A stretch of 64,000 nucleotides of DNA, taken from Raillietiella orientalis. Lineage: Eukaryota. The position numbers were made by a program, and so were the translations under genes. The stretch covers positions 930,001-994,000 of the forward strand of contig JAYWIR010000007.1 of NCBI GenBank assembly GCA_036172245.1, given 5' to 3'. Shown one piece after another: positions 21,201-25,769 of this stretch. Numbering within the stretch: the stretch's first letter is position 1; every line of letters begins with the position of its first letter. Below the pieces are notes generated by a model that saw nothing but the letters and a program-made list of their open reading frames with translations, was not told where the DNA came from and did no database searches.

Positions 21201-22651
21201 CAAGGCACCATTGCAAATATATATATATATATGACTTTGATGCTTTGTTGAAATATGAGTGTGTAGACGTAGAGATATCCTGTTGATAGGATGTCGACGT
21301 CAGAGCCAACGCAAAATGCGGAAGCTAATTTGTACTCGCTTATTTATTTTTATTTTTTTTCAGCGAAAGTGGCACCACTGTATTGGTCAGGCAGAACGTG
21401 GACTCATGAACGTATCTCCGGTTCATCATCACGCAGTCGGCTGATCTCCCTGTCGAAGAGTTATCTCCGGGTCTACGGCTCATATCACGATCGTTGGTGG
21501 AAGATCGCGTTGCCAGCTAAACACCGTTCCCATGGATGCTCGTCGTGTCGCTGGCATGTCGTCGCCTCTTCCTCGTGTACTAGCTCATTCGTTTGAGACA
21601 GAATCCTCCGGCTATGCCACGATGGTCTGTAGCATGAGCGCTTGGTGTGTGGTAGGATTCACTTCTGCCATTCGGAAACTTTGAGCTGCCAACGAACGTT
21701 TTTCGATTTGCTCTTTGCAAAGAGTGGTCGTCTCCAACGCGTGATCGTTTCCTTCTCCATGCACTGATGACGTCACTGGCAAATGACTTGATGAAGGGAA
21801 GAGGTAGGCTGTCAGATGGAGAGCATCGGAAAATTGGTCCGCAATGGATGCGAATCGGAATTTCAAGGAATCACAGCTGGAAGTTGGAAATCCTATGATG
21901 GACCTCCAGTCAAAAAAGGTGACTCAGCGACAGCACATTTTTATTTTTTTTGTGAATAAAAAGTCGATCGCAATCGAGATGAACTGATCGCAGGGGGGTT
22001 AGCAGTCCGAGACTGTCGTCATCGAATCACTTAACTCGGCGATAATCGCTTCATTTACGCGCATCGCTATCTTCGCCTCCTCACTCGCGTTTCTATGGCT
22101 TCGCCTGTTTCCATCTCGACCCGATGGGGAGCCGCTCGCATGCAGATGCTCACTGAAACACACTCCCCTGGCATCTCAGCAACACCCCGCCCATCTCCAG
22201 TCCAAGAGAAAAGAGATATCTCTCTCTCTCTCTGTGCGAGTTCGCGGCAGCAAAAGCAGACTCGACGAAGCTGATTGCATAATTATCTCACGAAGAGGAT
22301 GCCTCCGCGAGCAAGCGAATCCGAATACGCAGTGGAGCTATTTAAATTAGAATTAGGAATGGCGCCTTCAATATGGGTGTAGCTGCACGTCAAAATCTTT
22401 CCCGCGATCCTAAATGCTATTTTATTTTGTCTTTTTCTCCTTACGATTTCCCACCAGGCCAGTCACCCTGAAAAATCGGGAACCCTTCCCCCCCTCCTCC
22501 CCCCAGTTAACAATTTGTGAATGAAATACCTCTCTGCCTTGCCCACTGAGGTACGTGGCGGAAAAATGAAAGAGCCGCGTGCGCGCCCTGGCAAACTGAA
22601 TCCCCCCCCCCCGGACTGTGTGATTTGCACAGAAATGTGCCCACACCCATT

Positions 22652-22686
<35 letters not shown>

Positions 22687-22690
22687 CAGC
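22652..22690. repeat. (AGC)n trinucleotide microsatellite
   Basis: About 13 units with one interruption. Confidence 0.95.
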
Positions 22691-22737
22691 CTGATCACGA
22701 GGTGCCCGCAAGGCAGCCACATGCAGAATGAGTGGGC

Positions 22738-23790
22738 AAAAAAATGCTGAATCGGGTCTGGAGTTTCCAGCAGGCTCCCCCCCCCCCCCCACTGCGCGAT
22801 TTGCAAGCATGCACGTCGTCGTCGTCATCATGATGATGATGATGAGTTTCCCGCGAGAAAGGCACAATGAATATACGTGTGGGCGAGAGAGGGGTGGAAT
22901 AAAATGCTGACTGGGGTCTGGAGTTTGCAACAGGCTCCCCCCCCCCACTGCGCGATTTGCAAGCATGCACGTCGTCGTCGTCATCATGATGATGATGATG
23001 AGTTTCCCGCGAGAAAGGCACAATGAATATACGTGTGGGCGAGAGAGGGGTGGAATAAAATGCTGACTGGGGTCTGGAGTTTGCAACAGGCTCCCCCCCC
23101 CCACTGCGCGATTTGCAAGCATGCACGTCGTCGTCGTCATCATGATGATGATGATGAGTTTCCCGCGAGAAAGGCACAATGAATATACGTGTGGGCGAGA
23201 GAGGGGTGGAATAAAATGCTGACTGGGGTCTGGAGTTTGCAACAGGCTCCCCCCCCCCACTGCGCGATTTGCAAGCATGCACGTCGTCGTCGTCATCATG
23301 ATGATGATGATGAGTTTCCCGCGAGAAAGGCACAATGAATATACGTGTGGGCGAGAGAGGGGTGGAATAAAATGCTGACTGGGGTCTGGAGTTTGCAACA
23401 GGCTCCCCCCCCCCACTGCGCGATTTGCAAGCATGCACGTCGTCGTCGTCATCATGATGATGATGATGAGTTTCCCGCGAGAAAGGCACAATGAATATAC
23501 GTGTGGGCGAGAGAGGGGTGGAATAAAATGCTGACTGGGGTCTGGAGTTTGCAACAGGCTCCCCCCCCCCACTGCGCGATTTGCAAGCATGCACGTCGTC
23601 GTCGTCATCATGATGATGATGATGAGTTTCCCGCGAGAAAGGCACAATGAATATACGTGTGGGCGAGAGAGGGGTGGAATAAAATGCTGACTGGGGTCTG
23701 GAGTTTCCAGCAGGCTCCCCCCCCCCCCCCCCACTGCGCGATTTGCAAGCATGCACGTCGTCGTCATCATCATCATCGTCATGATGATGG
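22738..23790 (-). repeat. 156-bp tandem array (~6.7 units) built from the 7SL RNA 3' end, T-tract and downstream flank
   Basis: Marker TTGCAAGCATG recurs at 22801, 22957, 23113, 23269, 23425, 23581 and 23743 (period 156; last 162 from a longer C-run). The five units 22801-23580 appear identical. Each contains (minus strand) GAGCCTGTTGCAAACTCCAGACCCCAGTCAGCATTTT versus the 7SL end GGGCCTGTTCGAAACTCTAGACCCGATTCAGCTTTTTT. Confidence 0.97.
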
Positions 23791-23870
23791 TTGCGAGGAG
23801 TTCCCCGCGAGGAAGGCGGCGGCACATGCAGCAGAATGGGTGTAGGCGAGCGGCGGGCAAAAGGAAGAAG

Positions 23871-23876
23871 AAAAAA
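23871..23876 (-). terminator. RNA polymerase III terminator (T6) of the 7SL gene
   Basis: T6 run immediately after the 7SL 3' end on the minus strand. Confidence 0.85.
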
Positions 23877-24173
23877 GCTGAATCGGGTCTAGAGTTTCGA
23901 ACAGGCCCTCACTTACGGCTTGCTCACGGTTGCGATCCCACTACTGCTGGACTCGGAAGCTTTAAGCTGCTGAGTTTCCCCCCTGGCCCGGTTCGCTTCT
24001 CTTTAAGCAACCTGGACACGGGCGGCTCCCCGTCCGTGCCCATATTGAAGCCGAGCTTAGTGCGGACATCCGATCTACACACAACCGCAACTGAGAGAAC
24101 CCCTGTCCTCACACCATCCACCGATTCATACCTCCAAGTGGCTGGATTACAGGAGCACGCCACTGCTCCCAGT
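23877..24173 (-). ncRNA. 7SL: 7SL signal recognition particle RNA (metazoan SRP RNA), ~297 nt
   Basis: Minus strand starts ACTGGGAGCAGTGGCGTGCTCCTGTAATCCAGCCACTTGGAGG (Alu domain). It contains GATCGGATGTCCGCACTAAGCTCGGCTTCAATATGG, helix 6 GGGCACGGACGG-GGAG-CCGCCCGTGTCC, helix 8 CAGG-GGG-GAAA-CTC-AGCAG and CAGTAGTGGGATCGC, all colinear with metazoan 7SL. Pairing is preserved by compensatory changes; length and T-tract are as expected. Confidence 0.96.
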
Positions 24174-24320
24174 GGCGGATTCCGCCTTCCGCGCCGTATT
24201 CATGAATCGCGTTCGCCCCGTCGCACGGCGACAGCCGCCGCCGCGCTGCCGGGGCGCGCGTAGCGGCGAGCCGGTGCCGCCGCAGTCTTCCTCTCCTGCT
24301 GAAGCGAGACGGCTGGCGGC

Positions 24321-25769
24321 ATGGACGCGCGCCCCGACCGCGAGGGAAGCCACGGCGTGCCCACCGAGTCGCCCGACGATCTGTGCGGCAGGGTCCTCGC
24401 GATCCAGAGCCACGTCGTCCACGGATATGTGGGCAACAGGTGTGCCGTGTTCCCTTTGCAAGTAAGGTGCTGCTTTTTGTCGTTTGCGGGCTCGTACCGG
24501 GCGTGCACGCACACGTGTGTATGTGCACCCCACCCCCCCAACCACCCCCTTTCCAAGCGGGTGGGCTTCTCCGGGAACTGAAGGCTTCTCGATTAGATTT
24601 TAGGTTTTGATGTGGACGCAATCAATACTGTACAGTTTTCGAATCATACTCAGTACCCCGTGTGCAAAGGACAAGTGCTGTCTGGTGCTGAATTAGGTAG
24701 GTTGTTTTTTCAAAGGGAAAAAAAAAAAAAAAAGATTGTACCTTGCACGCATCCGTTTGTTTTCTGTGGTTAACTGTGCTTTGTATTTCAGAGGATCTTA
24801 TTGAAGGTCTTCGCAGCAATCATTTGTGCAATTACACTCACATAATAATTGGGTACATGGGATGTGAGTCAGCCTTAAAAGCAGTGCATGAATTCGTCGT
24901 ATACATTAAAAAGAACTTTCCTCACGTTATCTTTGGTACGAAATCATTTATAAATTATTTACTGAATCAACAAAAAAGCTGGAAGTACTTGAAACCATGT
25001 CTTCGCCTTTGAAATGCATTCATTTTTCCGAATGAGTGGATTACCTGGACGTTTTTTCAGTTTGTGATCCCGTTATGGGCGATGATGGAAGGATGTATAC
25101 TTCGCCAGACGTCTTGCCAGTGTACAAAGATGATCTCTTACCTTTAGCAGACATTTTAATCCCAAATCAATTTGAAGCTGAGTAAGTTGAACATTATGTG
25201 TACTTCTTTAATGATATGTGCAAGACTTCTTTCAGATATGAAAATACATAGTTTGAAAGATGCAAAGACTGTGATCGATTATTTTCACGAAAAAGGTGCT
25301 GGAATAGTGATTTTATCCAGCATTAAGCTTAATTCTGAGACATCCCTGACTGCAGTGGCTAGCAGTTGCATAGGTATTTTGCAATTTTTCGTGGAAACCT
25401 CTACTGTGTTAATTTGTCATAGATTCAAAAAAAAATCAAATCCAAATAGAATTCCCATATTTAAATGCCCAGTTCACTGGAACAGGTGATTTGTTTTCTG
25501 CATTGTTTTTGGCATGGATAACTCGTACTGATGGAGATTTGAAAATGTCTTTGGAAATTACTGTTTCTACCATGCAAGATGTGCTGCAACGTACCTTGAA
25601 TTTCGTAGAAAGTAAGCAATCCCACAATTCATAACATTTGCGTCAACGTTTAGTAGACAAAGACGCTTCAAGACCTGAAAATATGGAGCTCAGGATCATT
25701 CAAAGCAAAGCTGATCTGATTTCACCTAGAATTCACTTAACTGCTACCCCATTTGTGGTAGAAAGTTGA
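24321..25769 (+). CDS. PDXK: Pyridoxal kinase (7 exons)
   Basis: Exons 24321-24461, 24597-24696, 24792-24935, 25061-25181, 25225-25373, 25423-25611 and 25657-25769 splice in frame. Motifs [64 protein letters not shown]. Confidence 0.96.

What the first reader, a model, noticed from the sequence alone, without database searches (positions are those of the whole stretch)
22738..24173. 7SL RNA gene trailed by seven tandem copies of its own 3' end and Pol III T-tract
Seen: downstream of an intact 7SL gene, about the last 55 nt of the RNA plus a T-run recur seven times in the same orientation (plus-strand TGCTGA marker at 23685, 23529, 23373, 23217, 23061, 22905, 22745). The internal 156-bp units appear identical and carry T4-A-T2. 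The distal copy keeps 14 nt identical to the gene (GCTGAATCGGGTCT) and a T7. Known: this 3' segment is the strand that closes the SRP Alu domain by pairing with the 5' portion, T-runs terminate Pol III, and 7SL has repeatedly given rise to SINEs (Alu, B1). Inference: the array may be a stacked fail-safe terminator, a source of read-through 7SL isoforms with alternative Alu-closing strands, a nucleosome-length phasing element, or a nascent 7SL-derived satellite. I do not know of this architecture being described.
Basis: partly seen in the sequence, partly recalled or inferred. Interest (0 to 1): 0.8.

Follow-up and report, generated by a model that had tools for sequence, protein, structure and literature searches.

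The report
Local tandem repeat behind 7SL gene
The last 30 bases of an animal's only intact 7SL RNA gene, with about 130-160 bases of the DNA behind it, were duplicated on the spot into eight tandem units; the copies look like decaying repeats rather than a working device.

Summary
The array is real, but smaller in 7SL content and longer in extent than reported. An intact 7SL gene (RF00017, 238.8 bits, 24173-23877, minus strand) is the only complete copy found in this 210-Mb animal assembly. Each repeat unit is the gene's last 30 nt (not ~55), a T-run, and 126-161 nt of ordinary 3' flank ending in a poly-G tract. There are eight units including the gene's own end, running to 22601; four internal 156-bp units are identical and the edge units are diverged. 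The unit occurs at this locus only. Of six substitutions in the copies, four break pairs with the Alu-domain strand. The copies pair no better than randomly mutated versions. The gene keeps its own T6 plus T4. T-run density is not exceptional, and 22 other Pol III loci show no such copies. Best reading: a single-locus minisatellite born by local tandem duplication across the terminator, then expanded by unequal exchange or slippage, with at most incidental back-up termination. One point keeps a Pol III link open: no comparable array turned up in 600 kb sampled elsewhere. No reads from this organism and no relatives' flanks were available, so read-through, copy number and conservation are untested.

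The parts
23877..24173 (-). 7SL (SRP) RNA gene, full length; the only intact copy found in the assembly
   Evidence: RF00017 238.8 bits; genome searches give this gene plus two broken copies
23859..23876 (-). Native Pol III terminator region: T6 (23876-23871) and a second T4 (23862-23859)
23716..23906 (-). Unit U0, 191 bp: gene's last 30 nt + terminator + 3' flank ending in G16-A
23560..23715 (-). Unit U1, 156 bp; its 30-nt 7SL piece is a mosaic (5' part like copy 7, 3' part like copies 2-6); T4-A-T2
22936..23559 (-). Units U2-U5, four identical 156-bp units (30 nt 7SL end at 25/30, T4-A-T2, flank with trinucleotide repeats, G10-A)
22776..22935 (-). Unit U6, 160 bp (G14 instead of G10)
22601..22775 (-). 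Unit U7, 175 bp, diverged distal unit: 7SL end at 27/30 (22775-22746), T7 (22744-22738), flank with a CTG microsatellite, tail ending in G11-A
22652..22690 (.). (AGC)13 microsatellite inside U7, where the other units have (ATC)(ATG)(ACG) repeats

Best explanation
A single-locus minisatellite seeded at the 3' end of the working 7SL gene. Step 1 (inferred from anatomy): a segment from about 30 nt before the gene end, through the T-run, to a poly-G tract about 150-160 nt downstream was tandemly duplicated in place, by replication slippage, template switch or unequal repair. Step 2 (divergence shown, history inferred): the early units drifted apart by substitutions, indels and microsatellite turnover (U0, internal type, U7). 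Step 3 (identity shown, mechanism inferred): one internal unit was recently amplified to five or six near-identical copies by unequal exchange or slippage; the mosaic copy 1 records exchange between units. The gene itself stays intact and ends at its own T6. The copied 7SL ends decay without regard to pairing. The copied T-runs may stop the few polymerases that read through, as any downstream T-run would. High Pol III traffic and the G-tract may have made the site breakage-prone (inference).
For: U0 aligns end to end with the internal unit and with U7. The unit is confined to this locus. Identical core with diverged edges matches the pattern described for SINE-derived satellites (PMC10702118). 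4 of 6 substitutions break pairs, 1 is in a loop, 1 turns G-U into G-C. Duplex energies lie inside the null. The 30-nt piece is not significantly better conserved than non-microsatellite flank between U2 and U7 (4/30 vs 14/61 substitutions, counts read from the and 20 alignments; Fisher p=0.40). T6 is an efficient terminator for yeast Pol III and T5 for human Pol III in vitro. No trailing copies at 22 other Pol III loci.
Against: Arrays of period >=50 with >=3 copies were absent from 60 of 60 sampled 10-kb regions (600 kb; upper bound about 5 per Mb), so an array starting at the end of the one 7SL gene is unlikely under random placement, although the scan picked it after the fact. The 30-nt piece has no indels in any comparison, while the rest has 8-14 gaps. 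All 8 units keep a T4 or longer run. Copy 7 keeps near-native pairing (-27.1 vs -29.6) and forms a small hairpin (fraction 0.028 in 1 of 6 hairpin tests). No RNA or population data were available.
Confidence: 0.72

Rival explanations
1. Selected fail-safe terminator stack: the array arose by duplication but is kept because each unit presents a T-run (helped by a local hairpin) that clears Pol III escaping the T6 of a very highly transcribed gene.
For: T4 ends RNase P, MRP and some 5S genes in this genome. Pol III reads through canonical terminators in yeast and human cells, and hairpins strengthen T4. 9 T4+ runs on the sense strand and 0 on the other. Such arrays are rare in the genome.
Against: The gene already has T6 + T4. 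Internal runs are weaker than the native one. 14% of 182 GC-matched and 32% of all 840 window-strands hold >=9 T4+ runs. Hairpin energy with upstream context is at the null median (0.45-0.59). The strand bias is one unit repeated. No parallel at 22 other Pol III loci.
Confidence: 0.12
2. Source of read-through 7SL isoforms in which a downstream copy replaces the native strand that closes the Alu domain.
For: Copy 7 pairs almost as well as the native strand. Equilibrium folds of transcripts of 962 nt or longer lose all 24 native closing pairs and partly pair with copies.
Against: Copies 1-6 lose 9-11 kcal/mol. Folds up to 806 nt keep 22-24 of 24 native pairs. Reaching copy 7 needs read-through of eight T-runs. 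Folding 1-1.4 kb of repeats at equilibrium is unreliable and ignores co-transcriptional folding and protein binding (own knowledge).
Confidence: 0.04
3. Assembly artefact: the number of identical internal units is inflated or collapsed; the diverged edge units are real.
For: Four units are perfectly identical. No reads from this organism could be laid.
Against: The array is only 1.3 kb inside a 5.4-Mb contig of a 491-contig assembly. U0, U1, U6 and U7 are distinct, so at least five different units exist whatever the core count.
Confidence: 0.07
4. Nucleosome-phasing element that sets the downstream nucleosome and terminator access.
For: 156 bp lies in the 150-180 bp range common in satellites (PMC10702118). 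Downstream nucleosomes affect yeast Pol III termination (PMC13475603).
Against: Edge units are 191 and 175 bp. Length changes come from G-run and microsatellite slippage. No positioning data.
Confidence: 0.05

Closest known systems
SINE-derived satellites (sSat) of squamates (PMC10702118; seen: abstract, background, start of results, passages, Discussion)
   Same: Tandem units of 70-290 nt cut from part of a Pol III-type element, attached to a longer terminal unit that continues into the parent; leading and trailing units differ from a more uniform middle.
   Different: Parent here is the functional single-copy 7SL gene, not a tRNA-derived SINE; 81% of the unit is 3' flank; one locus rather than many.
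Alu-derived human minisatellites (PMC3389668, passages; Jurka and Gentles 2006 known only as cited there)
   Same: Local tandem duplication of part of a 7SL-family sequence, with units most like each other within the locus; includes partial-Alu repeats beside a full Alu.
   Different: Those come from retroposed Alu copies. No 5-20 bp direct repeat bounding the array was evident here.
Secondary (fail-safe) Pol III terminators (bioRxiv 10.1101/2021.08.27.457903 and PMC3141230, passages)
   Same: T-tracts downstream of a primary terminator, in sense orientation.
   Different: Known ones are scattered T-tracts, not repeats of the gene end; no read-through was shown here.
7SL-derived SINEs (Alu, B1; PMC13023118 seen as listing and abstract start)
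   Same: Contain 7SL 3'-end sequence.
   Different: SINEs join the 5' and 3' ends, keep a promoter and disperse by retroposition; none of that is seen here.

Membership tests
Metazoan SRP RNA gene (RF00017) | Full-length covariance-model match above the gathering score | tested here: met
   238.8 bits vs 70, model 1-299
Metazoan SRP RNA gene (RF00017) | Expressed as ~300-nt Pol III RNA | not testable with these tools
   Only other organisms' 7SL contigs were found
Single-locus minisatellite | Head-to-tail units, local origin, confined to one locus | tested here: met
   genome search counts are lower bounds
Single-locus minisatellite | Copy-number variation among individuals | not testable with these tools
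   No DNA runs of this organism were returned
SINE-derived satellite (sSat) | Unit derived from a SINE family | tested here: not met
   Parent is the intact 7SL gene; only two other 7SL-like loci were found
SINE-derived satellite (sSat) | Uniform middle units with distinct leading and trailing units | tested here: met
7SL-derived SINE | Dispersed copies holding joined 5' and 3' 7SL parts | tested here: not met
   30-nt pattern with up to 3 mismatches hits only this locus (3 hits); units hold no 5' part
Satellite DNA proper | Long, high-copy arrays | tested here: not met
   8 units, 1.3 kb, one locus
Fail-safe Pol III terminator | Sense-strand T4 or longer runs downstream of the primary terminator | tested here: met
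Fail-safe Pol III terminator | Enrichment or constraint beyond background | tested here: inconclusive
   9 runs vs GC-matched mean 5.2; 14% of 182 reach 9
Fail-safe Pol III terminator | Read-through transcripts ending at these runs | not testable with these tools

The most novel reading that the evidence does not exclude
The array is a selected extension of the 7SL transcription unit: Pol III escaping the T6 stops at successive hairpin-plus-T4 units, giving a ladder of 3'-extended 7SL RNAs, with the distal copy able to re-close the Alu domain. A weaker version, that Pol III termination at this gene beside a G-tract is a duplication hot spot, is more likely than selection but less striking.
Probability: 0.1. 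Interest if true: 0.7.

Novelty: new member of a known kind. Interest (0 to 1): 0.27.

Why it matters
If neutral, it is a tidy single-locus record of minisatellite birth at an essential Pol III gene (old edges, mosaic unit, fresh identical core) and a likely polymorphic marker. It also places seven mutated copies of the gene's closing strand next to the only intact gene, where unequal exchange could damage it (inference). If read-through ladders or conservation were found, it would be an undescribed way to build a Pol III terminator or to vary SRP RNA.

Tried and rejected
An 8-mer at gene nt 239 recurs in U0, and an anchored gapped alignment looked significant (shuffle p=0.0003, top of all gene windows, 76 of 17,820 background 29-mers). 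Rejected because the anchor was chosen after the fact and the same stretch matches the distal flank far better (0 of 4152 background windows vs 55 and 35 of 4152 for the gene). It is not wholly excluded: a 7-nt match to the gene end follows the last G-run and could be the remnant of a ninth copy. (2) A ninth unit below 22600: not significant (77, 809 and 818 of 1120 background windows score as high; no nhmmer hit). (3) Selection for terminator hairpins in the copies: fractions 0.058, 0.69, 0.028 for the piece alone and 0.51, 0.45, 0.59 with upstream context; one low value in six tests. (4) Sequencing runs: 4 metatranscriptome contig sets from 1 study, share 0.06. Laid on 23560-25500, 2 of 4 gave nothing; the best contig covers 23891-24152 with 18 differences, so it comes from another organism and says nothing on read-through. 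The stretch held only the first two units. (5) Two exact-pattern scans of metagenome contigs for relatives' 7SL loci: 0 hits each. (6) Other Pol III loci: 10 of 48 U6 hits, RNase P, MRP, 10 of 43 5S hits and one 7SL pseudogene half; best scores 14-23 vs 45 for 7SL; lowest p 0.005 (L030) and 0.04 (L015), taken as chance or very short matches. The arthropod 7SK search found nothing and is uninformative. (7) The 481-aa and 397-aa stop-free frames across the array follow from 156 being a multiple of three; they were not searched against protein libraries. (8) Literature: nine searches listed no paper whose title or abstract start describes a 7SL gene followed by repeats of its own end; only listings were seen for most, subscription journals are not covered, and no supplements were opened (those of PMC10702118 may hold similar loci).

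Full report
Setting. The window is C7:930001-994000 of an unnamed 210-Mb, 491-contig assembly. A metazoan SRP RNA and neighbouring BTB/BACK (BTBD7-like), tubulin, C2H2 zinc-finger and PRMT coding pieces indicate an animal; I did not place it further. The 7SL gene lies at 24173-23877 on the minus strand (238.8 bits, full model). Genome searches found it plus two broken copies: a 5' fragment on C8 (95%, about 173 nt) and a copy on C1 split by about 400 nt (90-91%). Neither shares flanks with the gene in the comparisons made (scores 16-19).

Observation. Splitting at the start of the 7SL-like piece gives units of 191 (U0, containing the gene end), 156, 156, 156, 156, 156 and 160 bp, then a distal unit. 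U2-U5 are identical; U1 has two substitutions; U6 has four extra G. The match to the gene covers the last 30 nt: 25/30 in copies 1-6 and 27/30 in copy 7, score 35 against a maximum of 30 in 3000 shuffles. The next 25 nt match at 7-9 of 25, p about 0.45.

True unit. I first considered a 59-nt origin, which an anchored alignment seemed to support (p=0.0003). The stretch in question, however, matches sequence 130-170 nt beyond copy 7 much better (0 of 4152 background windows vs 35-55 for the gene). Copy 7 therefore opens a complete eighth unit of 175 bp ending at 22601, with the same tail motif (8 occurrences) and a G11-A end, but with a CTG microsatellite where the others have ATC/ATG/ACG repeats. 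The unit is 30 nt of gene end, the T-run and 126-161 nt of 3' flank ending in a poly-G tract. The junction cannot be fixed more finely than about 10 nt beside the G-run. No ninth unit was detected. The unit occurs nowhere else by BLAST (7 matches, all here), by pattern (3 hits, all here) or by a profile over the window and fetched loci (next best E=0.12); genome-wide counts are lower bounds.

History (inferred). Outside the 30-nt piece U0, U2 and U7 differ by 15-28 substitutions and 8-14 gaps, so the first duplications are old; the identical core is recent. Copy 1 shares its 5' variants with copy 7 and its 3' variants with copies 2-6, as expected from exchange between units. The C1 pseudogene agrees with the gene at the three positions changed in copy 7, so those changes arose in the copies.

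Alternative closing strand? Six distinct substitutions occur: four break pairs with the 5' strand, one is unpaired, one changes G-U to G-C. Duplex energies are -29.6 (gene), -27.1 (copy 7), -20.7 (copies 2-6) and -18.4 (copy 1). Random substitutions of the same types do as well or better in 24%, 81% and 93% of trials. Predicted read-through RNAs up to 806 nt keep 22-24 of 24 native closing pairs; those of 962 nt or more lose them in the minimum-energy fold and pair partly with copies. I give the last result little weight, because equilibrium folding of long repeats is unreliable (own knowledge), but it is the one result in the idea's favour.

Terminator stack? The gene ends in T6, with a T4 14 nt later. 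Yeast Pol III released efficiently at T6 and not at T4 unless a hairpin helped (bioRxiv 10.1101/2021.08.27.457903, passages). Human Pol III terminated very efficiently at T4 and T5 in vitro but leaked in vivo (PMC3141230, passages). In this genome RNase P, MRP and some 5S genes end in T4, so the copies' runs could work. The array holds 9 T4+ runs in 1276 nt, against a GC-matched mean of 5.2; 14% of 182 matched window-strands reach 9. Hairpin tests gave one low value in six. The 30-nt piece is free of indels, but its substitution rate between U2 and U7 is not significantly below the flank's (p=0.40; low power).

Is the position chance? No array of period 50 or more with 3 or more copies was found in 60 regions of 10 kb, an upper bound near 5 per Mb. 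By my arithmetic, a start within 40 nt of a named gene end then has a chance of order 2 in 10,000, though the scan selected this case afterwards. A causal link is plausible: yeast Pol III genes are described as sites of fragility and fork stalling (PMC13475603, abstract), and the unit ends in a G-tract. G or C runs of 10 or more are common here (63 in 600 kb). A mutational hot spot and selection cannot be told apart with these data. Twenty-two other Pol III loci (10 of 48 U6 hits, RNase P, MRP, 10 of 43 5S hits) showed no trailing copies; tRNA genes were not examined.

Missing evidence. Public runs gave only other organisms' 7SL contigs, two metagenome scans gave nothing, and no relatives are held for this genome. 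Expression, read-through, copy number and conservation are untested.

Comparison. It works like the early stage of satellite formation described for SINE-derived satellites (PMC10702118) and for Alu-derived minisatellites (PMC3389668). It is not a member of either, because its parent is the live gene and most of the unit is flank. Nine literature searches showed no description of this arrangement at a 7SL gene, within an open-access library and mostly from listings.

Verdict. Real structure, 7SL share overstated, extent understated. Most likely a neutral single-locus minisatellite (0.72); selected terminator stack 0.12; core-count artefact 0.07; phasing 0.05; isoform source 0.04. Interest 0.27.

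Noticed in passing
L011:1501-2178 (G000:C1:2958492-2959161): 7SL pseudogene split by about 400 nt of unrelated sequence near gene nt 145-162, with an 8-nt deletion in the 5' half and no T-run after its end.
   Followed up: partly
L009 (G000:C8:2675145-2675317, -): 3'-truncated 7SL copy (first ~180 nt, 95% identical) with variant bases in the helix around nt 142-166.
   Followed up: partly
G000: At least 48 U6-like loci, only 2-3 near full score; L017 is followed by an A-rich tail, suggesting many retroposed U6 pseudogenes, against only two 7SL pseudogenes found.
   Followed up: no
G000, (C23, C24, C40): 5S genes occur as several sequence types, often in inverted pairs 1.3-1.7 kb apart rather than in head-to-tail arrays.
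   Followed up: no
L026:1410-1453: A 20-bp CT-rich tandem duplication (2.2 copies, 100%) beginning about 50 nt behind the RNase MRP match, next to a C-run.
   Followed up: partly
window:22594-22602: Directly after the last G-run, 7 nt match the gene end and are followed by TTT; possibly the remnant of a deleted ninth copy, not significant by alignment.
   Followed up: yes
window:24199-24208: A perfect 10-bp AT-rich palindrome about 25-35 nt upstream of the 7SL start, where a TATA-like element would lie; seen by eye.
   Followed up: no
window:27774-29063 (-): Large BTB/BACK (BTBD7-like) exon upstream of 7SL on the same strand, in AT-rich DNA, whereas the 7SL region is GC-rich.
   Followed up: partly
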